NCBI GenBank assembly: GCA_964422145.1
Contig: CAYQZV010000001.1
Span: 193,750-257,749 of the forward strand
Origin: an uncultured bacterium
Lineage (GTDB): Bacteria > Fidelibacterota > Marinisomatia > Marinisomatales > JACNKV01
Length of the DNA stretch: 64,000 nt
Direction: 5' to 3'
Below the pieces are notes generated by a model, which saw nothing but the letters and a program-made list of their open reading frames with translations, made no database searches and was not told the origin of the DNA. Below, piece by piece: positions 7,084 to 19,934 of this stretch. Each line of letters starts with the position of its first letter. The first letter of the stretch is position 1. The position numbers were made by a program, and so were the translations under genes.

Positions 7084-8437
7084 CATTATTTTAAACCAAG
7101 ATTCCTTGTGGACAAAGACAAAAGAGTTCTTACGAGCATCGCTGCCGGATCACGCATTCAATACATGGTTTGACCCGATCAATTTCATTACCATGCATGG
7201 CAATGAGATGGTTTTAGAGGTTCCAAACCAGTTTTTTTATGAGTGGATTGAAAGTCATTATAAAAACACGATTGAGTCTACCATCTTTTCAAACCTCAAT
7301 CAAAAAGTCACGATAAAATATACAATTGCCCCGGAAGGTCAGCAAAAAACAGAAACAACACCTCAAAATTTAATTAATGAACAAAAAAAGAAAGAGGTAA
7401 GCAAACCCAAACTAAATGAGAAGTATATATTTTCATCGTTCATTGAAGGAAGCAATAACCAGTTCGCTAAAGCTGCATCAATGAGCGTAGCTGAAGAACC
7501 CGGGCAAAAATCATTTAATCCCCTTGTGATATACGGCGGGGTCGGATTAGGGAAAACACACCTTTTACATGCAATTGGAAATCACATATTATTTAAATCA
7601 CCGGAGAAAAACATCGTTTGTGCTTCAAGCGAAAAGTTTACACACGATTTTATTTCTAGTATTCAAAAGAACAGAACCGTTGAGTTTTCAAAATTTTATC
7701 GAAATGCGGATGTGTTACTGATTGACGATATCCAATTCTTTCAGGGGAAAGAACAAACACAGGAACAATTTTTTCACACATTTAACGAACTGTATCAATC
7801 CGGGAAACAAATTGTAATGACAGCTGATCGTTATCCGGGAGAAATGGTAAAACTACAAGACCGCCTTCTGTCACGCTTTACTTCAGGGGTGTCTGTGGAC
7901 ATTCAGCCGCCGGATTATGAAACACGGGTGGCAATCCTGATGGAAAAAGCGGAAACGAACAACCTGTCGTTATCTTACGAAATCATCGAATTTATTGCAA
8001 CACACATCACGAAAAACATCCGAGAATTAGAAAGCTCCGTGATCCAGCTGTTGGCACGATCTTCATTATTCAACAAAGAGATAGATATGAACCTTGTCCG
8101 TGACGCCATAAAAGAGCGGGTCGGGAATCGCATCAAAACAGATATTTCAATTGAAGACATTGTCAGAAGCGTCTCTCAAAAAACGAACATTTCCGAGAGA
8201 GAGATTGTCGGGACTGGACGAAAAAAACATGTAGCAGAAACAAGACAGATAGCCATGTATTTAACGCGCGAGATCATGAGTGCGTCATTAAACACAGTAG
8301 GCCTCTACTTTGGCGGCAGAGACCACACAACGGTTTTACACGCTTGCAGAACCATTGAAGAAAAGTTGAAAACCGACCAAAGAACAAAAGCGGTTGTTCA
8401 CAAAGTAAAGAGTGAATTCAAGAGTGTTTTTGACTAA
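7076..8437 (+). CDS. dnaA: Chromosomal replication initiator protein DnaA
   Basis: 453 aa. Walker A GGVGLGKTHLLHAIGN, Walker B LLIDDIQF, C-terminal DNA-binding domain (...GGRDHTTVLHACRTIE...). Confidence 0.97.
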   Translation: MDNIILNQDSLWTKTKEFLRASLPDHAFNTWFDPINFITMHGNEMVLEVPNQFFYEWIESHYKNTIESTIFSNLNQKVTIKYTIAPEGQQKTETTPQNLINEQKKKEVSKPKLNEKYIFSSFIEGSNNQFAKAASMSVAEEPGQKSFNPLVIYGGVGLGKTHLLHAIGNHILFKSPEKNIVCASSEKFTHDFISSIQKNRTVEFSKFYRNADVLLIDDIQFFQGKEQTQEQFFHTFNELYQSGKQIVMTADRYPGEMVKLQDRLLSRFTSGVSVDIQPPDYETRVAILMEKAETNNLSLSYEIIEFIATHITKNIRELESSVIQLLARSSLFNKEIDMNLVRDAIKERVGNRIKTDISIEDIVRSVSQKTNISEREIVGTGRKKHVAETRQIAMYLTREIMSASLNTVGLYFGGRDHTTVLHACRTIEEKLKTDQRTKAVVHKVKSEFKSVFD

Positions 8438-8846
8438 AAAATGAAAAAACAGACTCACGAGTCGGTTGAAAAACAGTAAAAATTATGAGAAATATGTAAA
8501 AATATTGTGATATGGCGCACAAATTCAAATTAAAATCTTGAAATTAATTGATGGTCGCCCTATTTTATCGCTCCTTGTATCGAGGGTGCTTATAGAATTA
8601 TGAGCAATTTTGATATCCAAGCGAAAAGAAATAGGTTGACGTAAGACAACCAAAACACACAACAGGAGGTAGACAATAAAAGGAATCGCTAAAACGATTG
8701 TTTCCGACACCCAAAGACAAAAAACAAAAAACTATCTTTGCGTTCGGCCCTGCCTCACCTACCTTAAAAAGATGGAAATACGGGTTTTAACAGCTCGACT
8801 GAATCCATCAAAACAAACCCAACAGTAACAAACTAAGGAGTAGATA

Positions 8847-11800
8847 ATGAGACTACTTAAACAAACGATTGTTTTTACGCTATTAGCGACGCTTGTTTTG
8901 TCATTCGGATTTGCATCCAATGTCCAAGATAGCGAGAAGCGAGTAAGAACAAAAGATAACCACCCGGCTTTTGTCACGCCTGAACATTATGATGTCGGCA
9001 GGACAGAAGACTTCACGCTTGTCTTAACAGACTCGTGGGGCGACGGCTGGGATGGAGCCAATATGGACGTCTTTCAAAACGGAACTCTGCTTTTAGACGA
9101 TATCACCATTGACGATGGCAGCGAAGCTGTTTTTACCTTTGCTGTCGACAATGGAGACCTAATTGAAACCGTTTACACGTCCGGAAGTTATGAAAGCGAA
9201 CATAGTTATGCGTTCTATGATCAGAACGGTAACTTTATTGTAGGTGACGGGCCCAGCCCCGGGGCAGGAGTAAGCTTTACCGTAGAAATATCATATGATA
9301 TTCCTGGATGTATGAATGTCGATGCCTGTAACTACAACCCCGATGCAACCATTGATGACGGAAGCTGCTGTATAACAAACTGCTTAACGGTAAATTTGAT
9401 GGATTCTTTGGGCGACGGCTGGAACGGCAACGTATTAACAATAGGTGAGAATGTATATGAACTGCCATCTGGTTCAAGTCTTTTGATTGATGACTGTTTA
9501 GATGACGGCACATACGTCGTTACCTGTGGCGGCGGATCCTATCAGAGCGAAGTGTCTTGGGAAATCCTTGATGGTGCAGGAGCCGTATTGCTAAGCGGCG
9601 GCGCTCCATTTGAGGGCGTTCTCCTTCTTGGAGAATCAACCGACATTCTCGGTTGTACAGACTCTACCGCGGTTAATTATGATCCTGATGCAACAGTTGA
9701 CGATGGTTCATGTGTATATGAAGGCGATGAGTGTCTTTATGCGCTTGATGGCGGTGTTGTAAATGGTGCTCCCACATATGGCGCAACCACAGAAGCTTAC
9801 GACGTGGACTGGTACAGCTTTGTTGTGGACGCAGATTATGACAACGTTATTGTATCTCTCTGCGGATCCGGCTATGATACAAAACTTGAAGTTTGGGGAG
9901 CGTGCGAAGACGCAGACTACCTTGGTTATAATGATGATGCACCTTGCGGAAACTTCAATTCACAAGTTGATTTAACAAACATTGTTGCCGGAACCTATTA
10001 CGCAAAAGTTTATGGATATGGATCAAGCTTTGGTGACTATGTTCTGACACTGACCGCATTTAATAACCCAACCTCCCCGACATTAACCGCAACCGGTATC
10101 GGCAGCGGCGTTTCTCTTGAGTGGGAAGGCGTGGTTGTTGATGAGCCAGCGGCTACTCAAATGCCGACGATTAACCCGGTGAACAAAGCACTGGACGTTA
10201 AACCTTACGACACATTTACTGCCGATTTAACGGTTTATAATTCCCGTGCCCTCTATGCGCTGACAGTTGGCGGCGGATCTTGGGACTCAGAAATCAGCTG
10301 GGAAATCACTGATACCGGCGCAAACATTCTTTACAGTGGTGGCGCAGGCGTCTTTGATATTGATCTTGCTGATGGGTCATATGTCTTTAATGGTTATGAT
10401 TCATATGGTGATGGTTGGAACGGCGGAACAGCCTTGTTAGTTGATGAGAATGGCGGCTATCAGTTCTTTTATGGGCTGCTGGACGGTGATTTCTTTACTG
10501 AAACATTTGATCTGCCGACATCCGACATTTGGGGCTGTACAGATCCTGCGGCCACAAACTATAATCCAGATGCAACAATGGACGACGGATCTTGTGATTA
10601 TACAGTACCATCAAATGATGAGTGTACATCACCAGAATTCGTTGAGGGACCATATCCCACTACAGTGACGGGCTCAAACCTTGGCGCAACTGTTGATTGT
10701 GAAGGCCTTCTTGATTGGAATGCAGTATGGTATGAAATTGACTTACCCTATGCTGCAAACAATGTAACGGTCACGCTTTGTGGAAATGATGCAGCAATTT
10801 CAAACGCAGGGATTATCTTAATGGATGACTGTGCATGTGATGATTACTTTGTTGCCTCATATTCCTGGACGGAAGAAGGGTGTATTGAGTTAAGTTTTGC
10901 TGAAATCGCAGGCCCTGGAACAATTTTATATCCTGCCTATATTGAACCGCAGCAGAACTTCACGGTCACAGTAGATGTTGAAGAGGTTTATGTACCAACG
11001 TTCAATATTTATAAAGATGGAGATTCTCTTGACGTCGGAGTTGATGGAAACTCGTACGTGGATTCAGACGTAGTACTTGGAACCGAATACTGCTATACCG
11101 TTGAACAGGTTTTACCTGGCGGTGATTTATCGGGCATGTCAAACGAGGCGTGTGCATCACCACTTGAAGGTGCAACAGGCACAAGCTGTGAGGATGCAAT
11201 CCCCGCGGTTCTTGGACAAAATGATGCAGAGCTAATGCCGTTGTGGTATTCATACACAGCACAAACAGATTGTGAGCTGGAAATCACGTCACAAAACGCA
11301 ACCGGAGACGCTGCATGGGACACATACTTATATGTATATGGATCTTGCCAAACTGACGGAGACGGAAACCTTATTGATCTGATAGGGTCTAACGATGATT
11401 GCTGCGGCTATTGGGGACCATCAACGGTCTCTATTATTGTTGCGGCCGGCGATGAAGTAAAAATCTTTTGGGATGACGCATGGGATTCTCAACCGTTTAC
11501 ATTCTTTGTTAATGAGAGCGCAATACCAACATGCGAAGACGATGAGTTTGAAGATGACGACAACAAAGACATTGCTGTAAACCACGGCGCAGAAGGAACC
11601 TTTACATACGCACTCTGTATGTATGACAACGAAGGCGGAATCATGCAGCCAAGTGGTGTGGCAGCTGTTGACTGGAGTGTTGTAACAGTTGAACCATATC
11701 ACATTCTAACAGCGGCAACACACGGCACTGGAGACCCCGGAAACGATATAGATCTATTCTTTGAAGATTATGCGGGTGACGGCGTCTGTGCATGGGGAGG

Positions 11801-14800
11801 CGGAGACGATCTTGCCGGAAGCGGAAACATGGACTGTGAAGAAGAGGCTTCATGGATAAATGAAACGCTTGAGCCTGTGAATGTCTATGTCGGTGTAATC
11901 TACTATGCCGGTGAAGATCCCATCCCCTATGAGCTGACAATCTCGCTTGTAGCACCGGAATGCCCGGATGCACCTCAAAACGTTGTTGCTGAACTCTCCG
12001 GAGATCAAACATCGATTGGTGTAACATGGGACGCCCCTCTTGTCATGCCGGGAACCGCACTTGCTGAAAACCGGAAAGAACAAAGAATGAGTTTGGAGCA
12101 AGCTGATAATCAGCCCACGAGAGCAAAACTGCACTCAACCAAACAGACTGCTAGACCAACAGCAACAACCAAAGGCCCCAGATACACAGCCGACTTAACC
12201 ATCCATGAAATCAGAGCCATGTATGCCTTAACGGTTGGCGGAGGCTCATGGGATAGTGAAATCTCTTGGAACATTACAGACACAGGCGCGAACGAACTTT
12301 ACAGCGGCGCTGCTGGCGTCTTCGATGTTGATCTTGCAGATGGAACCTATATCTTTAACGGATTTGATGCTTATGGTGACGGGTGGAACGGCGGAACAGC
12401 AACCCTTGTTGATGCCGATGGAGCCGTCCAGTTTACTGCAGGATTAGAAGACGGAGAATCTTTCTCTCTTGAGTTCACTGTACCAAACGCAGAAGTATAC
12501 GGCTGTACCGACCCTGAAGCGATAAACTACAATCCTGATGCAACGGTTGATGACGGTTCATGTTATTATGCCGGTGACACATGTCTAGAGCCGCTGACAG
12601 CTACTTATGGTGAAAATGCAGCAGACGGTGTCGGCCCTCAGTATTTCTCATATGTCGCAACGATGGATGCCCTTCTCACTGTAACATCACAAAATGCAAC
12701 CGGAGACGCTGTTTGGGATACATACCTTGGCGTTTTGGGTTCCTGTGATGTAGACGAGGATGGATATTATCTTGATGTCCTAGGTGCGAATGATGATTGC
12801 TGCGACTATTGGGGACCATCCACAGTAACTACTCAGGTTACAACAGGCCAAGAAGTGATCATTTACTGGACCGGTGCTTACTCACCGGGTCCGTTTACCT
12901 TCTGGGTAACAGAAGAAGAAATGGACTGTGTTGACGATGATTTTGAAGACAATGATTCTTCATCAAGCCCGGCAGCCATTACTGAAGGAACCTATGAACT
13001 TCAGCTTTGTGCAATTGACCCGGATTGGTTTGAAATCACAGTTGATAATGGATTTGAACTACATCTAACCGTAACAGATCATTCTGAAACCGGTATGGTT
13101 GATGTGGGGATTTGGGTATTTGAACTTGATGATACATATACACAGGTTTATAGCCCGAATGAAAACGTCCATAATGTTGTGTGGGCAAACAACTCCGACC
13201 ACCCAATGGTAGCTGATTTTGCCGTTGGTGATTTCTGGGACGGCGTTCCGGAAACGGCTTACACGCTGACCGTTGCACTTGTTCCGTTTGATCAGGTTAC
13301 CTACACGGTATATCGCTCAGACAATGGTGCTGAAGAGCAAATTCAAGCTTCAGGTCTTTTAAACATGGAATACACAGACACTGCTATTTCACAGGGAAAC
13401 CAATACTGCTATACAGTTACGGCAAACCTGCCTGAATACGAAAGCATCCATTCTTGTAATGATGCCTGTGTCACCATTGTTGAGCCCCCTGCAGCTCCGA
13501 CGAACGTTCAAGCTGAAGGAACCTGGTTTGAAGACTATGCTTCCATTGTATGGTCTTGGGACTATGAAGGTTACGTTGAGCCGGCTCGAGCTGACCAACA
13601 AGCAATTAATCTGCAAGACATTCTTGACGGAACGTATCAAAACACGACGCGTGATGTTGTTGGATTTATACTTGCGTTTGAATTCGGCGGAACAGTGTAT
13701 GAATTTGCAACAGAATATCTAAGCATCCTGATCTACGGATTTGCCGATGGTGATTATGTTTGCGGATGGGTTTATGCTGTTGATGATAACGGTGTGTTAT
13801 CTCTGCCTTCAGACACAGCATGTGCTGAAGCAGGCGGCGAAACAGGCTGTGAAGTTGTCGCTGACAACCTTGAAGGCTGGAACCTAATCAGTCTTGCTGT
13901 TGGTGTTGAAGACGCATCTGTTTCTGCTCTCTATCCGGGATCAATTGAAGGAACCTGTTATGGATATCCATATGGTGAACCTGTGAATACACTAGTAAAC
14001 GGTGATGGATACTGGTTAAGATTCACCGCAGCTGGAACAAACACCTTTGCAGGCGACTGCACAGATGATGTGGCTGTCTCCTTAGCTGAAGGCTGGAACT
14101 TGATTGGTAGTGTTTCTGCTTCTGCTGGACTAGCTGATCCGAGTGGTGTTATCATAGAGGGAACCCTGTATGATTATCCATATGGTGAACCCGCAACATC
14201 TGTTGAGCCAGGTAAAGGATACTGGGTACGCGCAAGCGCAGCCGGAGACGTAACGGTTTCTACCTCTGCTCTCGGCGGCTTAGCAAGAATCAGCGAACCG
14301 GAAGCCAATGTTCTTACGATCAACGGAATGAAACTGTACTTCGGTATGGATATGAATGAAAAAGATGCGCTGAGCTTCAGTATGCCTCCGAAACCGCCAG
14401 CAGGTGCATTTGATGTGCGTTTTGCCGGTGACATGAGAGCTATTGAGACATCAGGCATGATCCAAACCCAGGGAACAGATAATCTGTCCATCGAGTGGAA
14501 CGTGACCAAAGAAGCCGGTGACCACATGTTCTGGACAATCACAACCACGGATGGTCAAGTGATTGAAATGAATGGTTTTGGCAGTGTTGAATTATCTGGA
14601 AATATCAACAGCATTATGCTGGGTAAAACCAGAGAAATTCCTGAGCAGTTTATGCTTGCTCAAAACTTCCCGAACCCGTTCAACCCGGTAACCAGCATTG
14701 ATTATGCTCTTCCGGAAGAAGGCTTTGTAACGATCAGCGTTTACAATATCATGGGACAAAAAGTCACCGAACTTGTAAACAGCGTGAAACAAGGCGGATA

Positions 14801-14921
14801 CCATACGGTTGTTTGGAACGGAACCAATTCTCTTGGCGAACCAGTTTCTACCGGTGTATATATGTACGCGATTGAAGCTGAAGGCTTTACGGCTGTCAAG
14901 AAAATGATCTTGATGAAATAA
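8847..14921 (+). CDS. Giant modular secreted protein (2024 aa), a T9SS cargo. It has GDGW(N/D)G modules, Cys-bracketed NY(N/D)PDATxDDGSC linkers, PPC-like (pre-peptidase C-terminal-like) domains and Fn3-like mini-domains. No catalytic domain was recognised.
   Basis: AAGGAG SD 7 nt upstream of the ATG. Signal peptide MRLLKQTIVFTLLATLVLSFGFA. The frame stays open for 6 kb. The C-terminal tail NFPNPFNPVTSIDY...GVYMYAIEAEGFTAVKKMILMK is typical of the T9SS type-A sorting domain. Confidence 0.85.
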   Translation: MRLLKQTIVFTLLATLVLSFGFASNVQDSEKRVRTKDNHPAFVTPEHYDVGRTEDFTLVLTDSWGDGWDGANMDVFQNGTLLLDDITIDDGSEAVFTFAVDNGDLIETVYTSGSYESEHSYAFYDQNGNFIVGDGPSPGAGVSFTVEISYDIPGCMNVDACNYNPDATIDDGSCCITNCLTVNLMDSLGDGWNGNVLTIGENVYELPSGSSLLIDDCLDDGTYVVTCGGGSYQSEVSWEILDGAGAVLLSGGAPFEGVLLLGESTDILGCTDSTAVNYDPDATVDDGSCVYEGDECLYALDGGVVNGAPTYGATTEAYDVDWYSFVVDADYDNVIVSLCGSGYDTKLEVWGACEDADYLGYNDDAPCGNFNSQVDLTNIVAGTYYAKVYGYGSSFGDYVLTLTAFNNPTSPTLTATGIGSGVSLEWEGVVVDEPAATQMPTINPVNKALDVKPYDTFTADLTVYNSRALYALTVGGGSWDSEISWEITDTGANILYSGGAGVFDIDLADGSYVFNGYDSYGDGWNGGTALLVDENGGYQFFYGLLDGDFFTETFDLPTSDIWGCTDPAATNYNPDATMDDGSCDYTVPSNDECTSPEFVEGPYPTTVTGSNLGATVDCEGLLDWNAVWYEIDLPYAANNVTVTLCGNDAAISNAGIILMDDCACDDYFVASYSWTEEGCIELSFAEIAGPGTILYPAYIEPQQNFTVTVDVEEVYVPTFNIYKDGDSLDVGVDGNSYVDSDVVLGTEYCYTVEQVLPGGDLSGMSNEACASPLEGATGTSCEDAIPAVLGQNDAELMPLWYSYTAQTDCELEITSQNATGDAAWDTYLYVYGSCQTDGDGNLIDLIGSNDDCCGYWGPSTVSIIVAAGDEVKIFWDDAWDSQPFTFFVNESAIPTCEDDEFEDDDNKDIAVNHGAEGTFTYALCMYDNEGGIMQPSGVAAVDWSVVTVEPYHILTAATHGTGDPGNDIDLFFEDYAGDGVCAWGGGDDLAGSGNMDCEEEASWINETLEPVNVYVGVIYYAGEDPIPYELTISLVAPECPDAPQNVVAELSGDQTSIGVTWDAPLVMPGTALAENRKEQRMSLEQADNQPTRAKLHSTKQTARPTATTKGPRYTADLTIHEIRAMYALTVGGGSWDSEISWNITDTGANELYSGAAGVFDVDLADGTYIFNGFDAYGDGWNGGTATLVDADGAVQFTAGLEDGESFSLEFTVPNAEVYGCTDPEAINYNPDATVDDGSCYYAGDTCLEPLTATYGENAADGVGPQYFSYVATMDALLTVTSQNATGDAVWDTYLGVLGSCDVDEDGYYLDVLGANDDCCDYWGPSTVTTQVTTGQEVIIYWTGAYSPGPFTFWVTEEEMDCVDDDFEDNDSSSSPAAITEGTYELQLCAIDPDWFEITVDNGFELHLTVTDHSETGMVDVGIWVFELDDTYTQVYSPNENVHNVVWANNSDHPMVADFAVGDFWDGVPETAYTLTVALVPFDQVTYTVYRSDNGAEEQIQASGLLNMEYTDTAISQGNQYCYTVTANLPEYESIHSCNDACVTIVEPPAAPTNVQAEGTWFEDYASIVWSWDYEGYVEPARADQQAINLQDILDGTYQNTTRDVVGFILAFEFGGTVYEFATEYLSILIYGFADGDYVCGWVYAVDDNGVLSLPSDTACAEAGGETGCEVVADNLEGWNLISLAVGVEDASVSALYPGSIEGTCYGYPYGEPVNTLVNGDGYWLRFTAAGTNTFAGDCTDDVAVSLAEGWNLIGSVSASAGLADPSGVIIEGTLYDYPYGEPATSVEPGKGYWVRASAAGDVTVSTSALGGLARISEPEANVLTINGMKLYFGMDMNEKDALSFSMPPKPPAGAFDVRFAGDMRAIETSGMIQTQGTDNLSIEWNVTKEAGDHMFWTITTTDGQVIEMNGFGSVELSGNINSIMLGKTREIPEQFMLAQNFPNPFNPVTSIDYALPEEGFVTISVYNIMGQKVTELVNSVKQGGYHTVVWNGTNSLGEPVSTGVYMYAIEAEGFTAVKKMILMK
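10221..11950 (+). repeat. Intragenic super-module A of the 2024-aa protein. Order: GGGSWDSEISW/GDGWNG module, Cys linker, an extra PPC-like plus Fn3-like insert (10601-11183), the TSQNATGD PPC-like domain, then the CEDDEFEDDD PPC-like domain.
   Basis: The protein and DNA are paralogous to 12189-13290. For example, LYALTVGGGSWDSEISWEITDTGANILYSGGAGVFDIDLADGSYVFNGYDSYGDGWNGGTALLVD aligns with MYALTVGGGSWDSEISWNITDTGANELYSGAAGVFDVDLADGTYIFNGFDAYGDGWNGGTATLVD. Confidence 0.8.
12189..13290 (+). repeat. Intragenic super-module B, paralogous to A but lacking the 10601-11183 insert
   Basis: Same domain order and high residue identity. For example, TSQNATGDAVWDTYLGVLGSC...NDDCCDYWGPSTV aligns with TSQNATGDAAWDTYLYVYGSC...NDDCCGYWGPSTV. 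Confidence 0.8.
13866..14258 (+). repeat. Tandem ~65-aa repeat (2 copies) with the pattern L-EGWNLI(S/G)...Y-YPYGEP...G-GYW(L/V)R..AAG
   Basis: NLEGWNLISLAVG...CYGYPYGEPVNTLVNGDGYWLRFTAAG is followed by LAEGWNLIGSVSA...LYDYPYGEPATSVEPGKGYWVRASAAG. Confidence 0.7.
14649..14918 (+). other. T9SS C-terminal sorting domain (Por secretion tail) of the 2024-aa protein
   Basis: Motif series NFPNPFNP...I.Y.L......ISVYNIMGQKV..L......G.H.V.W.G.N..G..V..GVY.Y......F...KKM.L.K. Confidence 0.85.
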
Positions 14922-14933
14922 AATAACGAATAT

Positions 14934-14963
14934 AGATACGTGCCGCTTTTGCGGCACGTATCT
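14934..14963 (+). terminator. Perfect 13-bp stem hairpin (AGATACGTGCCGC-TTTT-GCGGCACGTATCT) 13 nt after the stop codon
   Basis: Read directly. There is no U-tract after the stem, so it is either an atypical terminator or an RNA-stability element. Confidence 0.55.
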
Positions 14964-15185
14964 AATATGTCGAAACAAACATAAAGATTAAGTACGTCCT
15001 CTTGGAGAGAAGTTGTTCTTTTCTCCGGGAGGATGTGGGTTATGAAGGAAAGCACCTGAACACCCTTTGATAAAACAGAGACTTTTATAAATAGAAAAAG
15101 ATTTTAACACAGTTATGTGAAAAGACAGATGCGGTTATACCCATTTGTACAAATATGAAGAACAATAAACGTTGGAGGAAATACA

Positions 15186-18100
15186 ATGTTTAAAACAATC
15201 AAATGCTTAAGCCTTGTGCTTGTTCTGTTTGCAGGACTAAGCGCCCAGGGCTTATTCTTCTCTGAATATATTGAGGGAAGTTCAAATAATAAGGCGTTGG
15301 AAATTTATAATCCGACAGATACAGATATCGATCTGTCCGGCTATGCGTTTCCGAATGTTTCAAATGCGCCGACCACTCCTGGTGAATACGAATATTGGAA
15401 CACATTCGACACAGGAGCGATTGTTCCGGCTGGTGGCGTATATGTGATCGCTCACCCGGATGCTGACCCGACCATTTTGGCAGTAGCCAACCAAACCTTC
15501 ACATATTTAAGCAATGGTGATGATGGATTTTCTTTAGTACAGGGAACCGAGACTGACTTTGTAGCCATTGATTGGATTGGTGATTGGAATGGTGATCCGG
15601 GCTCCGGTTGGGATGTCTGTGGACAGGCCGCTGCGACACAAAACCATACGCTTGTAAGAGCAATCGGTGTAAACAGCGGAAACGACTGGGCCGTCTCGTC
15701 TGCCTCTGAAACCTGCGAATGGGATGTTTATGACCAAAACACCTTTACATTTTTAGGATCTCACACGGCAGAAGCGCCGACGACTGTATTTGTCACGTTC
15801 CAAGTAGATGTCTCAGAACTTGATCTTGAAGGCTATGTTGATAACAACGGTGAACCATTTTACGGTGTATATGCTACAGGTAGTTTTGATGGATGGGCAG
15901 GTTGGGGAACCCAACTGACAGATGACGATGCTGATGGTATTTACGTAGGCACTGCGGAAATACCGGAAGGCACATATGAATATTTATTTACCATAAATGG
16001 ATGGAATGGTCTTGCCGGAAATCCGCCGCTTGGATCAGAATGTGATTGGAACCCCGCAGACGAATTTGCTAATTATGGAATGGTCGTTGGTCCGGAAGAC
16101 TTCACGTTAGATGTTGTTTGTTGGCAGAGCTGTATGGAATGTATCGATGCAGTTACTATCTATGATATTCAAGGACAGGCTGATGCATCACCTTATGCTG
16201 GTCAAGTTGTTGAAACATCGGGTGTGGTTACCGCGACAAACGGCAGCAACAAACACTTTATTCAGGATGGTACAGGCGCTTGGAACGGCATATATATATA
16301 TGATAGTGGAAACACTTATACTGTAGGTGACAACATTACACTGGTAGCTGAAGTAACAGAGTATTACGACCTAACTGAATTGATGAATGTCGCCAGCGTT
16401 ACAGTTAATTCTTCAGGTAATGCGCTTCCCGAACCGGTTGTACTTACAACGGCAGAGGTTAGCACGGAAGATTATGAGGGTGTTCTGGTTACGACAATCG
16501 GTCTTTGTGATAATGAAGCCAACAACTACGGTGAATGGTCTGTAGACGACGGTAGCGGTACCGCTTGGGCTGACGATCAATACTTTACTTTCGCACCGGT
16601 GCTTGGCACAGGATACGCGGTAACAGGACCGTTAAACTATTCGTATGGTGCCTACAAAATTCTCCCGCGTGATGCAGGAGATATTGTTGAGCAGGTTGTT
16701 GTTCCTGAATTTACATTTACCTTCAATGTTGCCGGCGCAGCAGACGATCGCAGTCTAACGGTTGGATTCTCAGCAGGCGCAACTGACGGTTATGATGCAG
16801 GTTTAGATACATACGCTCCTCCGGCGCCCCCAGCTCCGTCGTTTGACGTTGCCCTTGGATGGGAAAACGATCGCTACTTCACCCAAATCTTAAATGGGGC
16901 TGAAGCAGATTGGGGTGTTGAACATACATACGAAGTGCTCTTACAGTTTGATGAATCAAGCGCAATTACCTTTACTTGGGACAATACAGGACTGAGTGAA
17001 TTAGGTACATTTGTACTTGAAGATGCATTTGGTGGAAACATTGTCAATGTTGACATGAACGCAGAAACATCATTGTCTGTAGACAATCCGGCTTTGACTA
17101 TGTTAAAGCTAAGAGTAACTCCCGGTGATTATGTACCCCCTGTGGACGTACCGAACTTTGTGGGTTCAGTTAACTTTGCTGGCGCAAGCGAGAACCGTAG
17201 TTTAACTTTCGGTTTTTCTCCGGAAGCAACAGATGGATACGATGCAGGTTTAGACGCATATGCTCCTCCGGCACCTCCAGCTCCGTCGTTTGATGTTGCG
17301 CTAGGATGGGAAAACGATCGCTACTTCACCCAAATCTTAAATGGGGCTGAAGAAGATTGGGAAGTTGAACATGTTTATACACTCCAACTCCAATACGACG
17401 AATCAGGAGCCATTGCTCTTACATGGGACAACACCATGTGGGAATATTACGGTAATGTGACCCTGAGAGACGGTTGGGGCGGCGTTTTATTTAATGATGT
17501 TGACATGGTCGCTGTAAACAGTTTTGTTTTTGATAACCCCGCGTTTACAACAGCCGAGCTGTCTGTTAAACCGGGCGAATACATTCCGCTGCCACCGCCA
17601 CCGCCACCGGCACCGGAATTAACCGCAACGGCAGGTCCGGGATCCATTACACTTAGCTGGACAGCCATTGAAGAAGACACACCTCAAAACGGTGTTAACT
17701 TCACGCTTCCGATTACCGTTGACGCCGGCGGAGAAACGTCCTATACATTAACAACAGGATTTTCTTCTGATGCAACAGACGGCTATGATGAAGGAATCGA
17801 TCTTTATGCACCTCCGGCACCTCCACCCCCGTCTTTTGATGCAGCGCTCAACTGGCAGTCTGATCGGTATTACACCCAGATCTTAAATGGTGCAGACGGT
17901 ATCTATGATGAGCATGTCTATGATATCCAGCTTCAGTTTGATTCAAACAATCTGATCAACCTGACTTGGGAAAACGCAGGTTTAGCTGACCTTGGAACCT
18001 TTATTCTACAAGATGCATTTGGCGGAATGATCATTAATGTTGATATGACAGAAGTGGGCTCTGTTGTGGTTGATAACGTAGCACTTAACTTGCTGAAAGT

Positions 18101-19313
18101 ATTCATTACTCCGGTAGAGTCAAACTACTTGACCACGTTCGATTTATATCGCGATGGTGAATTGTTAGTACCCGGACTAGAAGGAACAACATACACAGAT
18201 ACAGGCTTACCACCACAAGAGTTTTGTTATACCATTACTCAAAATATGGTTGATGGATCAGTATCTGATCACTCAAACGAAGCCTGTGCAACGCCTGAAG
18301 TTTCCTCACCGCAAAACTTAACAGCGGTATTTGATGACGTTGAAGAAAACATCGATTTAAGCTGGGATGCAATGGAACAAGATATTCCAAGCAGCGATTT
18401 CGATTTCATACTTCCGATCACGGTTGATGCCGGTGGAGACGTTTCTTATACGTTAACCACAGGGTTTTCACCTCTTGCAACGGACGGCTATGATGAAGGA
18501 ATCGATCAGTATGCACCTCCGGCACCCCCACCTCCGTCCTTTGACGCAGCGCTCAGCTGGCAGTCAGATCGATACTATACGCAGATCTTAAACGGCGCAG
18601 ATGGTGTTTCTGAGGATCATATCTATGATATCCAGCTTCAGTTTGATTCAAATTATCTGATCAATCTGACGTGGGATAATACAGGGTTAGCTGATCTTGG
18701 AACCTTTATTCTCCAGGACGCTTTTGGTGGTATGATTATCGATGTTGATATGACGGAAGTTGGTTCAGTTACCGTTGATAATCCAGCCCTCAACCTGTTG
18801 AAAGTTATCATTACTCCAACATCGTTTGAATATACTCCGACGTTCAATATTTATAGGAACGGAGGATTGTATGTATCAGGAATTGAAGGAACTACCTACA
18901 CAGACGTAGACTTTGGACTGGGAACATTTTGTTATACAGTAACACAGATTTTGATAGATGACTCTGAATCAGGTCACTCAAATGAAGCTTGTGTAACAAT
19001 AGAAGATGGCGCGATTGATAATGATCTTCTCCCGGTAAGTTTTGCCTTACATCAAAACTACCCGAACCCATTCAATCCCATCACAACAATTACCTATGAT
19101 ATTGCTGAAGAAACCTTCGTCAATGTCAGTATTTACAATTTGATGGGACAAAAAGTTCGGACGCTGGTTTCTGCAAAACAAATACAAGGACAGTACTTTG
19201 TTCAGTGGGACGCAAGAAACGACCACGGCGGAGCATTGCCCACCGGTGTATATATCTATCGAATTGATGCCGGCAGTTTCACAGATGTGAGAAAACTGGT
19301 CTTAATGAAATAA
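15186..19313 (+). CDS. Giant modular secreted protein (1375 aa), a T9SS cargo. Order: lamin-tail-domain head, CBM-like beta-sandwich, ExeM/NucH-like OB-fold region without a nuclease domain, four copies of an unnamed ~140-aa PPAPPxPSFD module, two Fn3-like mini-domains, T9SS tail.
   Basis: GGAGG SD 8 nt upstream. Signal peptide MFKTIKCLSLVLVLFAGLSAQ. LTD signature LFFSEYIEGSSNNKALEIYNPTDTDIDLSGY. OB-like region IYDIQGQADASPYAGQVVETSGVVTA...YYDLTEL. C-terminal tail NYPNPFNPITTITY...GVYIYRIDAGSFTDVRKLVLMK. Confidence 0.85.
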   Translation: MFKTIKCLSLVLVLFAGLSAQGLFFSEYIEGSSNNKALEIYNPTDTDIDLSGYAFPNVSNAPTTPGEYEYWNTFDTGAIVPAGGVYVIAHPDADPTILAVANQTFTYLSNGDDGFSLVQGTETDFVAIDWIGDWNGDPGSGWDVCGQAAATQNHTLVRAIGVNSGNDWAVSSASETCEWDVYDQNTFTFLGSHTAEAPTTVFVTFQVDVSELDLEGYVDNNGEPFYGVYATGSFDGWAGWGTQLTDDDADGIYVGTAEIPEGTYEYLFTINGWNGLAGNPPLGSECDWNPADEFANYGMVVGPEDFTLDVVCWQSCMECIDAVTIYDIQGQADASPYAGQVVETSGVVTATNGSNKHFIQDGTGAWNGIYIYDSGNTYTVGDNITLVAEVTEYYDLTELMNVASVTVNSSGNALPEPVVLTTAEVSTEDYEGVLVTTIGLCDNEANNYGEWSVDDGSGTAWADDQYFTFAPVLGTGYAVTGPLNYSYGAYKILPRDAGDIVEQVVVPEFTFTFNVAGAADDRSLTVGFSAGATDGYDAGLDTYAPPAPPAPSFDVALGWENDRYFTQILNGAEADWGVEHTYEVLLQFDESSAITFTWDNTGLSELGTFVLEDAFGGNIVNVDMNAETSLSVDNPALTMLKLRVTPGDYVPPVDVPNFVGSVNFAGASENRSLTFGFSPEATDGYDAGLDAYAPPAPPAPSFDVALGWENDRYFTQILNGAEEDWEVEHVYTLQLQYDESGAIALTWDNTMWEYYGNVTLRDGWGGVLFNDVDMVAVNSFVFDNPAFTTAELSVKPGEYIPLPPPPPPAPELTATAGPGSITLSWTAIEEDTPQNGVNFTLPITVDAGGETSYTLTTGFSSDATDGYDEGIDLYAPPAPPPPSFDAALNWQSDRYYTQILNGADGIYDEHVYDIQLQFDSNNLINLTWENAGLADLGTFILQDAFGGMIINVDMTEVGSVVVDNVALNLLKVFITPVESNYLTTFDLYRDGELLVPGLEGTTYTDTGLPPQEFCYTITQNMVDGSVSDHSNEACATPEVSSPQNLTAVFDDVEENIDLSWDAMEQDIPSSDFDFILPITVDAGGDVSYTLTTGFSPLATDGYDEGIDQYAPPAPPPPSFDAALSWQSDRYYTQILNGADGVSEDHIYDIQLQFDSNYLINLTWDNTGLADLGTFILQDAFGGMIIDVDMTEVGSVTVDNPALNLLKVIITPTSFEYTPTFNIYRNGGLYVSGIEGTTYTDVDFGLGTFCYTVTQILIDDSESGHSNEACVTIEDGAIDNDLLPVSFALHQNYPNPFNPITTITYDIAEETFVNVSIYNLMGQKVRTLVSAKQIQGQYFVQWDARNDHGGALPTGVYIYRIDAGSFTDVRKLVLMK
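15249..15689 (+). other. Lamin tail domain (LTD)-like N-terminal domain
   Basis: SEYIEGSSNNKALEIYNPT...DLSGY...G.YVIAH......LSNGDDGFSLV...DWIG...NHTLVR. This is the same head seen in ExeM/NucH-type extracellular nucleases and other LTD proteins. Confidence 0.7.
16152..16684 (+). other. ExeM/NucH-like OB-fold (putative nucleic-acid or polymer binding) region. No endonuclease/exonuclease/phosphatase domain follows it.
   Basis: VTIYDIQGQADASPYAGQVVETSGVVTATNG..HFIQDGTGAWNGIYIYD...VTEYYDLTEL...YGEWSVDDGSG...YKILPRDAGDI. Confidence 0.55.
16707..17132 (+). repeat. PPAPPxPSFD module, copy R1
   Basis: ...SLTVGFSAGATDGYDAGLDTYAPPAPPAPSFDVALGWENDRYFTQILNGAEADW...FTWDNTGLSELGTFVLEDAFGG.IVNVDM...LKLRVTPGDY. 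Confidence 0.85.
17157..17582 (+). repeat. PPAPPxPSFD module, copy R2
   Basis: Paralogous to R1. A 49-nt run at 17304-17352 is identical to 16857-16905, although flanking synonymous sites differ. Confidence 0.85.
17691..18113 (+). repeat. PPAPPxPSFD module, copy R3
   Basis: ...PITVDAGGETSYTLTTGFSSDATDGYDEGIDLYAPPAPPPPSFDAALNWQSDRYYTQILNGADG...LQFDSNNLINLTWENAGLADLGTFILQDAFGGMIINVDMTEVGSV.VDN.ALNLLKVFITP. Confidence 0.85.
18393..18818 (+). repeat. PPAPPxPSFD module, copy R4
   Basis: Near-identical to R3 at the protein level (...PITVDAGGDVSYTLTTGFSPLATDGYDEGIDQYAPPAPPPPSFDAALSWQSDRYYTQILNGADG...). Confidence 0.85.
19041..19310 (+). other. T9SS C-terminal sorting domain of the 1375-aa protein
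   Basis: FALHQNYPNPFNPITTITYDI...VSIYNLMGQKVRTLV...GVYIYRIDAGSFTDVRKLVLMK. Confidence 0.85.
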
Positions 19314-19336
19314 TATTACGAATAAAAACGATAAAG

Positions 19337-19368
19337 AAAAGGGACCTGATGGGTCCCTTTTCTTTTAT
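19337..19368 (+). terminator. Rho-independent terminator (AAAAGGGACC-TGATG-GGTCCCTTTT followed by a T-tract)
   Basis: Read directly. GC-rich stem followed by CTTTTAT. Confidence 0.8.
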
Positions 19369-19478: not shown

Positions 19479-19877
19479 ATGCAAAAAGGAAGTATCAATA
19501 AAGTAATGTTAGTGGGCCATCTCGGCGGAGATGCCGAAAGCCGTTTCACACCAAACGGAAGCGCTGTTGCTACATTTAATATCGCAACCAACGAATCCAG
19601 AAGAAACGCTGAAGGTGGCTACGACGATAAAACGGAATGGCACCGCTGCGTTGTCTTTGGAAAAATGGCTGAAACAGCAGGAGAATACCTTAAAAAAGGA
19701 CAGTTGATTTATTTTGAAGGAAGGTTACAAACACGCTCTTGGGATGACAAAGACGGTGTCAAAAGATACACCACAGAAGTGATTGGGGACCGTTGGACAA
19801 TGCTTGGAAGACGAAATGACGATGGCGCTCAACAAGCCAAGGTAACCGATCCCGGCGATGACGACCTTCCCTTTTAA
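19479..19877 (+). CDS. ssb: Single-stranded DNA-binding protein
   Basis: 132 aa. OB-fold N-terminus NKVMLVGHLGGDAESRFTPNGSAVATFNIATNE and the acidic C-terminal tip DDDLPF. Confidence 0.97.
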   Translation: MQKGSINKVMLVGHLGGDAESRFTPNGSAVATFNIATNESRRNAEGGYDDKTEWHRCVVFGKMAETAGEYLKKGQLIYFEGRLQTRSWDDKDGVKRYTTEVIGDRWTMLGRRNDDGAQQAKVTDPGDDDLPF

Positions 19878-19900
19878 TTAAACAAACAAAACTCTGTAAC

Positions 19901-19934
19901 AAAAAGGGGCGTTTTGTCGCCCCTTTTTATTTTA
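19901..19934 (+). terminator. Rho-independent terminator (AAAAAGGGGCG-TTTTGT-CGCCCCTTTTT followed by ATTTT)
   Basis: Read directly. Confidence 0.85.

What the first reader, a model, noticed from the sequence alone, without database searches (positions are those of the whole stretch)
8847..19313. Two giant modular T9SS-cargo genes sit directly downstream of dnaA, where dnaN-recF-gyrB would be expected
Two co-oriented ORFs (2024 aa and 1375 aa, 10.2 kb of coding sequence) follow dnaA. Each has its own signal peptide, SD site and terminator hairpin, and each carries a closely related T9SS C-terminal sorting tail. They also share the Fn3-like mini-domain xFNIY(K/R)(D/N)G...Y(T/V)D......(Y/F)CYTV.Q......S..SNEAC. 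In about 3400 residues I recognise no catalytic domain, only binding, spacer or repeat modules, and most of these I cannot assign to a named family. An origin-proximal, leading-strand position gives the highest gene dosage during growth. That is unusual for what looks like an accessory surface system, and no dnaN is visible anywhere in the window.
Basis: partly seen in the sequence, partly recalled or inferred. Interest (0 to 1): 0.7.

Follow-up and report, generated by a model that had tools for sequence, protein, structure and literature searches.

The report
Giant secreted surface proteins beside dnaA
Two very large surface proteins with no detectable enzyme domain, tagged for type IX secretion, follow the replication-initiator gene in a SAR406 (Marinimicrobia) genome; this is a common inherited gene order in that phylum, not an anomaly.

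Summary
Two co-oriented ORFs (2024 and 1375 aa) follow dnaA. Each has a signal peptide, a Shine-Dalgarno site, a strong hairpin after its stop codon and a type-A T9SS C-terminal sorting domain. No catalytic domain was found by Pfam, NCBIfam, PDB sequence search or two AlphaFold models.

The interpretation needs correcting. The window comes from a Marinimicrobia (SAR406/Fidelibacterota) genome. None of 84 related dnaA loci has a dnaN-like sequence within about 10 kb. The usual order is mnmG-mnmE-yidC-yidD-rpmH <> dnaA-[slot]-ssb-plsC-eamA. In 33 of 64 informative loci the slot holds a giant LTD/T9SS protein like the second gene. The pair is therefore inherited, not a misassembly: independent assemblies and orthologs at 64-68% identity show the same junctions.

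The second protein carries LTD, CBM48-like and tandem OB modules, as extracellular nucleases do, but lacks their nuclease domain. The shared "mini-domain" looks like the C-terminal part of an Fn3 domain split by a large nested insert.

The most likely function is surface-anchored polymer binding or adhesion. This is a new member of a known kind, of modest interest. Two of its modules (GDGW, R150) have no Pfam model.

The parts
6430..6830 (-). yidD (6430-6696) and rpmH (6696-6830). These are the last genes of the divergent mnmG-mnmE-yidC-yidD-rpmH cluster (1566-6830).
   Evidence: Translations; Pfam. The same cluster lies upstream of dnaA in 64 of 65 related loci.
6831..7115 (.). AT-rich rpmH-dnaA spacer (245 bp, 27% GC). 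Two perfect DnaA boxes (7064, 7075) and one 1-mismatch box (7107) overlap the dnaA start. This is a candidate oriC or a dnaA operator.
   Evidence: The box pair is present in nearly all 80 related loci.
7076..8437 (+). dnaA (453 aa)
   Evidence: TIGR00362 515.6 bits; Pfam Bac_DnaA, DnaA_N and Bac_DnaA_C.
8438..8846 (+). dnaA-G1 spacer (409 bp, 35.5% GC). It holds no DnaA box, no terminator-like hairpin directly after dnaA, and AAGGAG before the G1 start.
8847..14921 (+). G1, a 2024-aa acidic (pI 4.05) T9SS cargo protein
   Evidence: An identical protein was found on 3 contigs, those shown coming from Logan assemblies of two sequencing runs. Orthologs at 68% and 64% identity lie in the same synteny.
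8979..9722 (+). G1 aa 45-292: two GDGW modules, each followed by a Cys-linker (GCTDxxAxNYNPxATxDDGSC)
   Evidence: AlphaFold model with pLDDT 86, all-beta. No PDB fold match at E < 1e-3. The profile finds 21,400 representative proteins.
9723..10064 (+). G1 aa 293-406: PPC-like module (PPCa)
   Evidence: Pfam PPC 20.1 bits, below the 25.9 cut-off. PPCa is homologous to PPCb by hhalign, 92.6%.
10068..11174 (+). G1 aa 408-776: split Fn3 no. 1. Strands A-B (408-430), then the nested insert GDGW-CysLink-PPCa (467-712), then strands C-G, which are the 'mini-domain' (711-776).
11175..11981 (+). G1 aa 777-1045: modules PPCb and PPCc
   Evidence: No PDB sequence relative.
11982..13484 (+). G1 aa 1046-1546: split Fn3 no. 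2. Strands A-B (1046-1076), then a linker and the insert GDGW-CysLink-PPCb-PPCc, then strands C-G (1474-1546).
   Evidence: The spliced sequence matches Pfam fn3 at 27.7 bits (cut-off 25) across the junction; the mini-domain alone matches nothing.
13485..14636 (+). G1 aa 1547-1930: an Fn3-like segment, two GWNL repeats (1676-1735, 1748-1805) and a pre-CTD region carrying a PPxPPxxFD motif
   Evidence: The pre-CTD region resembles R150 only weakly (hhalign 15%). The Fn3-like reading rests on inspection.
14637..14918 (+). G1 T9SS type-A C-terminal sorting domain (aa 1931-2024)
   Evidence: TIGR04183 30.5 bits against a cut-off of 23. Pfam Por_Secre_tail 25.9 bits against 27; FlgD_ig 27.6 bits.
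14933..14964 (+). 14-bp-stem hairpin after G1
   Evidence: -28.8 kcal/mol, z -7.5.
15186..19313 (+). G2, a 1375-aa acidic (pI 4.05) T9SS cargo protein
   Evidence: Orthologs P0122-P0124; syntenic in L001 and L002.
15246..15770 (+). G2 aa 21-195: lamin-tail domain with an ExeM-type extension
   Evidence: Pfam LTD 45.1 bits against a cut-off of 34.3. NF033680 ExeM matches aa 21-195.
15774..16145 (+). G2 aa 197-320: CBM48/CBM20-like module (alpha-glucan-binding type)
   Evidence: The profile hits the SEX4 CBM48 at 1.6e-6, and also pullulanase, SIP2/AMPK-beta and amylase CBMs. Weak Pfam X25 hit.
16149..16685 (+). G2 aa 322-500: tandem OB-like region, as in the N-terminus of ExeM/NucH nucleases. 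No EEP nuclease domain follows.
   Evidence: NF033681 positions 2-108 only. The profile hits the N-terminus of the EEP protein 9sf8 at 1.8e-7 and the RPA32 OB fold at 0.012.
16686..17585 (+). G2 aa 501-800: two free-standing R150 repeats
   Evidence: 64% identical to each other; the family has 142 proteins.
17601..19013 (+). G2 aa 806-1276: two Fn3 domains, each split by a nested R150 module. Strands A-B lie at 806-831 and 1040-1066, R150 at 832-976 and 1067-1214, strands C-G at 977-1037 and 1216-1276.
   Evidence: The two copies are 80% identical. AlphaFold model of 832-1045 with pLDDT 90.9. Splice test. No PDB fold match.
19029..19310 (+). G2 T9SS type-A C-terminal sorting domain (aa 1282-1375)
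   Evidence: TIGR04183 40.3 bits against 23; Por_Secre_tail 32.1 bits against 27.
19333..19365 (.). Terminator-like hairpin (14-15 bp stem) after G2, T-rich on the + strand
   Evidence: -21.8 kcal/mol, z -6.1.
19479..21545 (.). ssb (+), plsC-like acyltransferase (+) and eamA (-). These form the conserved right flank of the slot.
   Evidence: conserved in related loci.
29934..30824 (-). DUF4835/PorD-like gene. It is the only possible T9SS component seen in the window.
   Evidence: Pfam DUF4835 64.3 bits against a cut-off of 25. NCBIfam T9SS_PorD 61.8 bits, below the 170 cut-off.

Best explanation
**What they are.** G1 and G2 are real, vertically inherited genes of a Marinimicrobia (SAR406) bacterium. 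They encode very acidic, multi-domain proteins with no detectable enzyme domain.

**How they most likely work (inferred).** The Sec pathway carries each protein across the inner membrane. The type IX system then recognises the type-A C-terminal domain, moves the protein across the outer membrane, removes the tail and leaves the protein attached to, or shed from, the cell surface. The tail is C-terminal, so the N-terminal modules point outward on a stalk of beta-sandwich repeats. In G2 these outward modules are LTD, a CBM48-like module and two nuclease-type OB folds. In G1 they are GDGW and PPC-like modules. The stalk is made of R150 repeats and of Fn3 domains split by nested inserts. The heads would bind polymers such as alpha-glucan or extracellular DNA, or particles, for substrate capture or attachment.

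**Why they sit after dnaA.** The position is most simply inherited phylum-level gene order around the origin, not a displaced dnaN operon and not an adaptation for gene dosage.

**Shown:** gene reality, synteny, domain content, and the absence of any detectable catalytic domain.
**Inferred:** secretion, surface anchoring, ligands and orientation.
For: **Gene reality and synteny.** An identical G1 was found on 3 contigs, including Logan assemblies of two runs, and those shown carry the same dnaA-G1-G2 junctions. Orthologs at 68% and 64% identity lie in the same mnmG-mnmE-yidC-rpmH<>dnaA-G1-G2-ssb-plsC-eamA order. G1 identity is comparable with that of its neighbours. Internal DNA repeats are at most 80% identical.

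**Phylum context.** All 80 DnaA-related loci come from Marinimicrobia-type MAGs or SAGs. A giant gene sharing G1/G2 modules follows dnaA in 33 of 64 informative loci. Of 22 complete examples, 21 have the T9SS CTD and 17 have LTD. The other frequent families are Ig-like, MAM, Cleaved_Adhesin, CARDB, PKD and cadherin; no enzyme family is among the 25 listed.

**Secretion signals.** TIGR04183 scores above its cut-off in both proteins. Signal-peptide-like N-termini are visible. A DUF4835/PorD-like gene lies 11 kb away.

**Binding-type modules.** LTD scores above its Pfam cut-off. The CBM48-like profile hits SEX4 at 1.6e-6. The OB-like profile hits the N-terminus of an EEP nuclease at 1.8e-7. In ExeM the OB-like region is essential and is proposed to bind the substrate, while the LTD is dispensable for DNA degradation (PMC6085458).

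**No enzyme.** No catalytic family appears in Pfam or NCBIfam. PDB sequence search gave nothing for G1 and only one marginal, unrelated match for G2 (E 0.06). The AlphaFold models of the GDGW and R150 modules are confident, all-beta and resemble only generic Ig/Fn3/adhesin arrays.
Against: - No core T9SS gene (sprA/sov, porV, porU, gldKLMN) was seen. Only 64 kb of the genome could be examined, and the PorD-like hit is below the NCBIfam cut-off.
- The literature retrieved still describes the T9SS as confined to Bacteroidota (abstracts).
- About 700 residues of G1 have no assigned fold (PPCb, PPCc, GWNL repeats, pre-CTD region). A small or novel active site cannot be excluded.
- Ligands are inferred only from module families. 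No binding residues were checked.
- No expression data were available.
- Origin proximity rests on synteny and three DnaA boxes, not on a whole-chromosome skew.
Confidence: 0.65

Rival explanations
1. The position directly after dnaA is itself selected. Possible reasons are early replication, guaranteed co-orientation of very long transcription units with the replication fork, or tethering of the origin region to the envelope while a giant secretory protein is transcribed, translated and exported together (transertion).
For: The giant gene keeps this position and orientation in 33 of 64 loci across a phylum whose DnaA proteins have diverged to 54-79% identity, even though its own architecture changes greatly. 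It is always co-oriented with dnaA. The neighbours include yidC and yidD, which are membrane-insertion factors.
Against: The whole neighbourhood is syntenic: mnmG-mnmE-yidC lies upstream in 64 of 65 loci, and ssb-plsC-eamA is common downstream. Inertia therefore explains the position. In 29 of the 64 loci the layout has no giant gene at this site. No data on expression or chromosome localisation exist. SAR406 bacteria are not known as fast growers (general knowledge).
Confidence: 0.1
2. One or both proteins are enzymes with an unrecognised catalytic module, for example a new protease, nuclease or glycanase. G2 would then be a divergent ExeM/NucH-type extracellular nuclease.
For: G2 shares LTD and the OB-like region with ExeM/NucH. 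Some module-sharing homologs carry trypsin (PF00089) or EEP (PF03372) domains. Several G1 modules have no assigned fold.
Against: No EEP or other catalytic model matches; NF033681 covers only positions 2-108 of 546. The orthologs P0122-P0124 also lack EEP. Every delimited module is 150 aa or shorter. The two modelled modules are plain beta-sandwiches, and the others are repeats or read as beta-rich by inspection. No enzyme family is among the 25 commonest families in 22 dnaA-adjacent relatives.
Confidence: 0.1
3. The dnaA-ssb slot is a flexible genomic island. The giant surface genes are swapped or remodelled under phage or grazer pressure, so they serve mainly as variable surface shields or decoys, not as ligand binders.
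For: The slot content varies: one or two giants of 600-3257 aa, none at all, or an inserted PEPCK gene or a 205-224-aa ORF. Architectures differ widely between species. Modules are shuffled between G1-like and G2-like proteins.
Against: Within the close clade G1 is conserved along its full length at 64-68% identity, like its housekeeping neighbours. The protein is identical in separate samples. No integrase, tRNA or repeat boundary flanks the slot.
Confidence: 0.1
4. The junctions are assembly artefacts, or the ORFs are collapsed repeats or pseudogenes.
For: The sequence comes from a metagenome-type assembly, and repetitive modular genes are prone to misassembly.
Against: Logan assemblies of two separate sequencing runs give the identical 2024-aa protein and the same flanks. 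Two diverged relatives have the same order. The reading frames are intact, and the internal repeats are at most 80% identical.
Confidence: 0.02

Closest known systems
T9SS type-A CTD cargo proteins of Bacteroidota (for example P. gingivalis gingipains and Hbp35; Flavobacterium surface and secreted proteins)
   Same: An N-terminal signal peptide plus a C-terminal sorting domain of about 80-90 aa that matches TIGR04183/PF18962. The body is modular and beta-rich. The expected fate is surface attachment or release after the tail is removed.
   Different: The host is Marinimicrobia, outside the phylum in which the system has been studied. No enzyme domain is present. The tail is of the FlgD_ig-like subtype. 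The secretion machinery was not seen in the sequence available.
ExeM / NucH / Xds extracellular nucleases (LTD, OB-like region, EEP domain)
   Same: The G2 N-terminus has the same LTD with its extension and the same OB-like region.
   Different: The EEP catalytic domain that defines the family is absent. A CBM48-like module sits between LTD and the OB folds. The C-terminus is a T9SS tail, whereas ExeM has a GlyGly-CTERM/rhombosortase anchor (PMC6085458).
Giant modular bacterial adhesins (SiiE, SdrD, Bap-type and LapA/RTX adhesins; SprB of gliding Bacteroidota)
   Same: Length of 1400-2000 aa or more, very acidic, with tandem Ig/Fn3-like beta-sandwiches and ligand-binding modules at the end distal to the anchor. 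The weak fold matches are to SiiE, SdrD and Bap.
   Different: They use other secretion routes (T1SS, sortase). SprB uses a type-B CTD. There is no significant sequence or fold match, and no RTX or BIg repeats.
Surface glycan-binding proteins and CBM48/CBM20 starch- or glycogen-binding modules
   Same: The profile of the G2 197-320 module matches the SEX4, pullulanase and AMPK-beta/SIP2 binding modules.
   Different: It is not attached to a GH13 or phosphatase catalytic domain, and it is not in a Sus-like locus. The binding residues were not checked.
The canonical origin cluster rnpA-rpmH-dnaA-dnaN-recF-gyrB
   Same: The left half (mnmG, mnmE, yidC, yidD, rpmH, dnaA) and the DnaA boxes are present.
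   Different: dnaN, recF and gyrB are not linked to dnaA here or in any of the 84 related loci. ssb lies downstream of the slot.

Membership tests
T9SS type-A cargo | C-terminal sorting domain matching TIGR04183 / PF18962 above the curated cut-off | tested here: met
   TIGR04183 scores 30.5 bits (G1) and 40.3 bits (G2) against a cut-off of 23. PF18962 scores 32.1 bits (G2, above 27) and 25.9 bits (G1, just below 27).
T9SS type-A cargo | N-terminal Sec signal peptide | tested here: met
   By inspection: MRLLKQTIVFTLLATLVLSFGFA|SN and MFKTIKCLSLVLVLFAGLSA|QG. No predictor was available.
T9SS type-A cargo | Core T9SS machinery (SprA/Sov, PorV, PorU, GldK/L/M/N) encoded in the same genome | tested here: inconclusive
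   Only a DUF4835/PorD-like gene was found in the 64-kb window. The main ORFs were scanned.
T9SS type-A cargo | Demonstrated export, with CTD cleavage and surface attachment | not testable with these tools
   This needs proteomics or genetics.
ExeM/NucH extracellular nuclease | EEP (endonuclease/exonuclease/phosphatase) catalytic domain | tested here: not met
   There is no PF03372 hit. NF033681 matches only model positions 2-108 of 546, at 32 bits against a cut-off of 300.
ExeM/NucH extracellular nuclease | N-terminal LTD followed by an OB-like nucleic-acid-binding region | tested here: met
   LTD scores 45.1 bits against 34.3. NF033680 matches aa 21-195. The OB profile hits 9sf8 at 1.8e-7.
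Fibronectin type III domain (the shared 'mini-domain') | A contiguous seven-strand domain of about 85-90 aa matching PF00041 | tested here: not met
   The mini-domains alone give no fn3 hit, and the model shows only 4 strands.
Fibronectin type III domain (the shared 'mini-domain') | A full match once the upstream A-B strand segment is joined to the mini-domain (split domain with a nested insert) | tested here: met
   fn3 scores 27.7 bits (above 25) across the junction for G1 copy 2. For the other three copies the Fn3-like RGI_lyase score rises from 14-17 to 19-23 bits, with coverage extended to the N-terminal model positions. No structure model of the joined domain was made.
PPC (bacterial pre-peptidase C-terminal) domain | Match to PF04151 above the cut-off | tested here: inconclusive
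   20.1 bits against a cut-off of 25.9 for G1 319-390. PPCa is homologous to PPCb (hhalign 92.6%); PPCc is not. No PDB sequence hit.
CBM48/CBM20 alpha-glucan-binding module | Sequence-profile similarity to solved CBM48/CBM20 modules | tested here: met
   SEX4 at 1.6e-6, pullulanase at 5.6e-4, SIP2 at 6e-4. Ligand-binding residues were not examined.
SprB-type gliding adhesin | Type-B CTD (TIGR04131) and SprB repeats | tested here: not met
   The NCBIfam scan reports only the type-A model. The CHU_C hits are sub-threshold.
Canonical dnaA-dnaN-recF-gyrB operon | dnaN immediately downstream of dnaA | tested here: not met
   No DnaN-like sequence better than E = 1.6 was found in the window or the 84 loci. 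The query was E. coli DnaN recalled from memory. The ORFs after dnaA were identified.

The most novel reading that the evidence does not exclude
In the SAR406/Marinimicrobia phylum the site immediately downstream of dnaA, next to the likely origin, is a conserved and functionally selected home for the cell's main giant surface protein. Selection could act through replication-transcription co-orientation, early replication, or transertion-based anchoring of the origin. These proteins are built partly from domain families absent from Pfam: GDGW with its Cys-linker (about 21,400 representative proteins) and R150. They also contain Fn3 domains split by nested inserts. Together they would define the cell-surface interface of one of the ocean's most abundant uncultured phyla.
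Probability: 0.1. Interest if true: 0.6.

Novelty: new member of a known kind. Interest (0 to 1): 0.35.

Why it matters
SAR406/Marinimicrobia are abundant in the dark ocean and almost entirely uncultured, so how their cells meet particles and polymers is unknown. This locus gives a concrete, phylum-wide candidate: a giant T9SS-tagged protein with LTD, CBM and OB modules but no enzyme. That makes hypotheses about surface capture of glucans or extracellular DNA directly testable.

The analysis also shows that the apparent oddity is a lineage norm. It flags two widespread modules with no Pfam model and a nested split-Fn3 architecture, which could improve annotation of many thousands of marine metagenomic proteins.

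The textbook statement that the T9SS is confined to Bacteroidota does not fit these cargo signatures. Settling that needs the machinery genes to be found.

Tried and rejected
**Searches of the window that found nothing**
- Rfam and tRNA scans.
- phmmer of the full proteins against PDB sequences: nothing for G1 and one marginal, unrelated match for G2.
- A CTD HMM search of all window ORFs found no T9SS cargo other than G1 and G2.

**Module-level tests**
- Foldseek against the PDB gave no hit at E < 1e-3 for either model.
- Profile searches of PPCa, PPCb and PPCc against PDB sequences gave nothing meaningful.
- An hhalign test of whether the G1 pre-CTD region is an R150 relative was inconclusive (15%).

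**Origin and dnaN**
- GC skew in the window cannot locate the origin. The left arm is only 7 kb, and the skew over 8-20 kb may simply reflect the composition of the two giant genes.
- The dnaA-G1 spacer was considered as an oriC candidate and rejected: it has no DnaA box even at 2 mismatches.
- The promoter scan found no more sites than shuffled sequence.
- DnaN search of all loci: no hit.

**Literature**
- Searches joining Marinimicrobia or SAR406 with T9SS, Por secretion or LTD found nothing relevant. The Fidelibacter description does not mention secretion.
- Searches for the GDGW/DDGSC motif found nothing relevant.

**Artefact check**
- A recent-duplication or assembly-collapse origin of the repeats was rejected, because DNA repeats are at most 80% identical.
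Full report

Yes. The ORF list shows dnaA at 7076-8437, then two co-oriented ORFs at 8847-14921 (2024 aa, called G1 here) and 15186-19313 (1375 aa, G2) (translations).

DnaA is unambiguous: TIGR00362 scores 515.6 bits.

Both giant proteins end in a T9SS type-A sorting domain. TIGR04183 scores 30.5 and 40.3 bits against a cut-off of 23. Pfam Por_Secre_tail and FlgD_ig also match. The two tails are 50% identical over 94 residues.

Both N-termini read as Sec signal peptides (inspection only). AAGGAG and GGAGGA precede the start codons.

Strong hairpins follow both stop codons: 14933-14964 at -28.8 kcal/mol (z -7.5), and 19333-19365 at -21.8 kcal/mol (z -6.1). No comparable structure follows dnaA.

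The shared xFNIY(K/R)(D/N)G...CYTV...SNEAC segment occurs twice in each protein. The best-matching copies of the two proteins are 43-50% identical.

**2. Is it an assembly artefact?**

No. The identical 2024-aa protein was found on three contigs. Those shown are Logan assemblies of two sequencing runs, with the same dnaA-G1-G2 junctions.

Two diverged relatives (G1 orthologs at 68% and 64% identity) show the same order: mfd-mnmG-mnmE-yidC-rpmH <> dnaA-G1-G2-ssb-plsC-eamA. One of them has a PEPCK gene inserted between dnaA and G1.

G1 diverges about as fast as its housekeeping neighbours. Against L001, G1 is 68% identical, mnmE 59%, yidC 72% and dnaA 79%. Internal DNA repeats are at most 80% identical, so repeat collapse is unlikely.

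**3. Whose genome is it, and what is normal there?**

A DnaA-based scan of one genome per species returned 80 loci. DnaA identity is 54-79%, and nearly all are labelled Marinimicrobia, Neomarinimicrobiota or Fidelibacterota, that is SAR406.

- **Upstream of dnaA.** mnmG-mnmE-yidC is conserved in 64 of 65 loci.
- **Downstream of dnaA.** The 64 loci with at least 3 kb of sequence fall into three layouts.
  - 33 have one or two giant genes (about 600-3257 aa) sharing G1/G2 modules, followed where the sequence extends far enough by ssb-plsC-eamA.
  - 16 have plsC-eamA, with ssb detected in some, and no giant gene.
  - 13 have an unrelated lpxB/lpxK block.
  - The remaining 2 have other content.
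- **dnaN.** A tblastn/phmmer search found nothing better than E = 1.6 in the window or in any of the 84 loci. The query was E. coli DnaN recalled from memory, so this is a lead-quality check. It agrees with the ORF identities seen.

So dnaN-recF-gyrB is not expected here. From my own knowledge, dnaA and dnaN are also unlinked in Bacteroidota such as Porphyromonas.

Pfam was run on 22 complete dnaA-adjacent giants. Of these, 21 have Por_Secre_tail and FlgD_ig, and 17 have LTD. The other frequent families are Ig-like (ASH/HYDIN), CarboxypepD_reg, MAM, Cleaved_Adhesin, CARDB, FG-GAP, PKD and cadherin. No enzyme family is among the 25 listed.

G2, with its LTD...Fn3...CTD layout, is therefore the phylum-wide occupant of the slot. 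G1-type orthologs occur only in the closest clade (L001, L002, L005, L007), although GDGW modules also appear in some single giants elsewhere.

**4. Is the locus origin-proximal?**

Probably.

- The classic origin neighbourhood lies divergently upstream: mnmG/gidA, mnmE, yidC, yidD and rpmH.
- The rpmH-dnaA spacer is 245 bp at 27% GC, against 42.5% for the window, and contains long A/T runs.
- Two perfect DnaA boxes and one 1-mismatch box sit at the dnaA start.
- A box pair at this position was counted in nearly all related loci.

The dnaA-G1 spacer has no DnaA box. GC skew within the window is uninformative.

The dosage argument is weak. Origin-linked dosage is important mainly in fast growers (general knowledge).

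**5. What are the proteins made of?**

Self-comparison and module HMMs give the maps below.

*G1*
- Signal peptide.
- Two GDGW modules, each followed by a 25-aa Cys-linker (GCTDxxAxNYNPxATxDDGSC).
- PPCa.
- Split Fn3 no. 1: strands A-B, then GDGW-CysLink-PPCa, then strands C-G.
- PPCb and PPCc.
- Split Fn3 no. 2: strands A-B, then linker-GDGW-CysLink-PPCb-PPCc, then strands C-G.
- An Fn3-like segment, two GWNL repeats and a pre-CTD region.
- CTD.

*G2*
- Signal peptide.
- LTD: Pfam 45.1 bits against a cut-off of 34.3, with an ExeM-type extension.
- CBM48/20-like module: the profile hits the SEX4 CBM48 at 1.6e-6, and also pullulanase, SIP2/AMPK-beta and amylase CBMs.
- Tandem OB-like region: the profile hits the N-terminus of the EEP nuclease 9sf8 at 1.8e-7 and the RPA32 OB fold at 0.012.
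- Two free-standing R150 repeats.
- Two Fn3 domains, each split by an R150 module.
- CTD.

The EEP nuclease domain that defines ExeM/NucH is absent. NF033681 covers only positions 2-108 of 546. It is also absent from the G2 orthologs.

In ExeM, the OB-like region and the EEP domain are essential for activity. The LTD is dispensable for DNA degradation, and its role is unknown (PMC6085458).

Both mature proteins are extremely acidic: pI 4.05, 15-16% Asp+Glu and 2% Lys+Arg.

**6. The unassigned modules**

- **GDGW plus Cys-linker.** The AlphaFold model of G1 38-292, built on 21 aligned di-modules, has pLDDT 86 and is all-beta.
- **R150 plus mini-domain.** The model of G2 832-1045, built on 60 sequences, has pLDDT 90.9 and pTM 0.74.
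- **How common they are.** GDGW and the Cys-linker are very common. About 1,300 GDGW and 1,000 Cys-linker copies occur in 118 of the first 120 homologs, many of which have no Pfam annotation at all. A di-module profile finds 21,400 of 1.84 billion representative proteins at E <= 1e-3, and 2,045 at E <= 1e-30. R150 is rare, with 142 proteins. These include stand-alone proteins of about 166 aa and signal peptide-R150-CTD proteins of about 260 aa, so R150 folds independently.
- **PPC-like modules.** PPCa and PPCb are homologous (hhalign 92.6%). PPCa gives a sub-threshold Pfam PPC hit. PPCc remains unassigned.

**7. The 'mini-domain' is a split Fn3**

Each mini-domain is preceded, 150-400 residues upstream, by a segment that reads like Fn3 strands A-B (PxNLxA....VxLxW). 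I joined that segment to the mini-domain in silico and scanned the result against Pfam.

- For G1 copy 2, the joined sequence matches fn3 at 27.7 bits (cut-off 25, E 3e-6) across the junction. The mini-domain alone matches nothing.
- For the other three copies, the Fn3-like RGI_lyase score rises from 14-17 to 19-23 bits. Model coverage extends from positions 33-82 to positions 12-82.

The AlphaFold model shows only four strands for the mini-domain, consistent with a C-C'-F-G sheet that lacks its partner strands. This is an inference.

**8. Mechanism**

- **Shown:** gene reality, synteny, module content, and the absence of any recognisable catalytic domain.
- **Inferred from what is known of the T9SS:**
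  - Sec export.
  - Recognition of the type-A tail, passage across the outer membrane and removal of the tail.
  - Attachment to, or release from, the cell surface.
  - N-terminal binding heads projected outward on a beta-sandwich stalk.
- **Plausible ligands:** alpha-glucans (via the CBM48-like module) and nucleic acid (via the OB folds). GDGW and PPC ligands are unknown, and the acidity suggests Ca2+ dependence.
- **T9SS machinery:** the only hint in the window is a DUF4835/PorD-like gene at 29934-30824. It passes the Pfam cut-off but is below the NCBIfam cut-off. The rest of the genome could not be examined.
- **Literature:** no paper in the library connects Marinimicrobia with the T9SS.

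**9. Verdict**

The finding is real, but its hook dissolves. The arrangement is a common ancestral-looking gene order of the SAR406 phylum, and giant T9SS proteins without enzyme domains are a familiar kind in the FCB group. What remains of interest:
- the phylum-wide positional conservation next to the probable origin;
- the nuclease-like head without a nuclease;
- two module families with no Pfam model;
- the nested split-Fn3 design.

Interest 0.35; new member of a known kind.

Noticed in passing
window 8979-9722, 10245-10604, 12213-12572: The GDGW module (DS[WYF]GDGWNG ... GGGS[WY]xSE[IV]SW, with the two halves in either order) and its 25-aa Cys-linker have no Pfam model. Yet a di-module profile hits 21,400 of 1.84 billion representative proteins. 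In other proteins the Cys-linker also occurs in tandem arrays at 20-29 aa spacing.
   Followed up: partly
window 16686-18827 (four R150 copies): R150 is a 150-aa domain with the invariant motif GFSxxATDGxDxxxDxYAPPxPPxPxFD. Its AlphaFold model is confident and has no PDB match. The family is small (142 proteins). It includes stand-alone proteins of about 166 aa, minimal signal peptide-R150-CTD proteins, and a few Planctomycetota proteins with dockerin.
   Followed up: partly
window 7063-7115: Two perfect tandem DnaA boxes (CTGTGGATAAC x2) overlap the listed GTG start of dnaA, and a third box lies 30 nt inside the gene. A box pair at this position was counted in nearly all 80 related loci. This suggests autoregulation or part of oriC. 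The true start codon may lie downstream.
   Followed up: partly
window 29934-30824 (-): A DUF4835/PorD-like gene sits next to a GT2 glycosyltransferase (28918-29964) and a TMEM260-like protein O-mannosyltransferase (25947-28895). Together these could relate to T9SS function or to glycosylation of cargo.
   Followed up: no
L002 7967-9583; window 22562-24517 (-): One relative has an ATP-type PEPCK gene inserted between dnaA and the G1 ortholog. The window instead carries a GTP-type PEPCK a few kb downstream on the other strand.
   Followed up: no
L019, L031, L032, L038, L041, L043, L061 (about 200-700 bp after dnaA): In several species an unannotated ORF of 205-224 aa sits between dnaA and the giant gene. 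Its identity is unknown.
   Followed up: no
L009 and L013 (JAADGP01); L060 and L080 (CAYYXU01): Two different dnaA contigs occur in the same MAG, in one case one with and one without the giant gene. This suggests mixed bins.
   Followed up: no
L010, L052, L077, L082: Contigs with Marinimicrobia-type dnaA neighbourhoods are filed under MAGs labelled Bacteroidota, Methylococcaceae, Proteobacteria and Legionellales. Bin contamination or mislabelling is likely.
   Followed up: no
homologs P0141-P0240: There is a large family of proteins of about 1330 aa, one source-labelled Crocinitomicaceae (Flavobacteriales). They combine the same highly conserved LTD head (55-65% identical to G2) with a cupredoxin (PF00127) domain, and often carry the name 'predicted extracellular nuclease' although no EEP domain is listed. 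They may be systematically misnamed.
   Followed up: no
window 15243-15248 (G2 signal-peptide cleavage site): The predicted cleavage LSA|QG would expose an N-terminal glutamine. This fits the 'Q-rule' described for Bacteroidetes signal peptidase I substrates (PMC5837995 abstract), which is reported not to hold for the whole FCB group.
   Followed up: no
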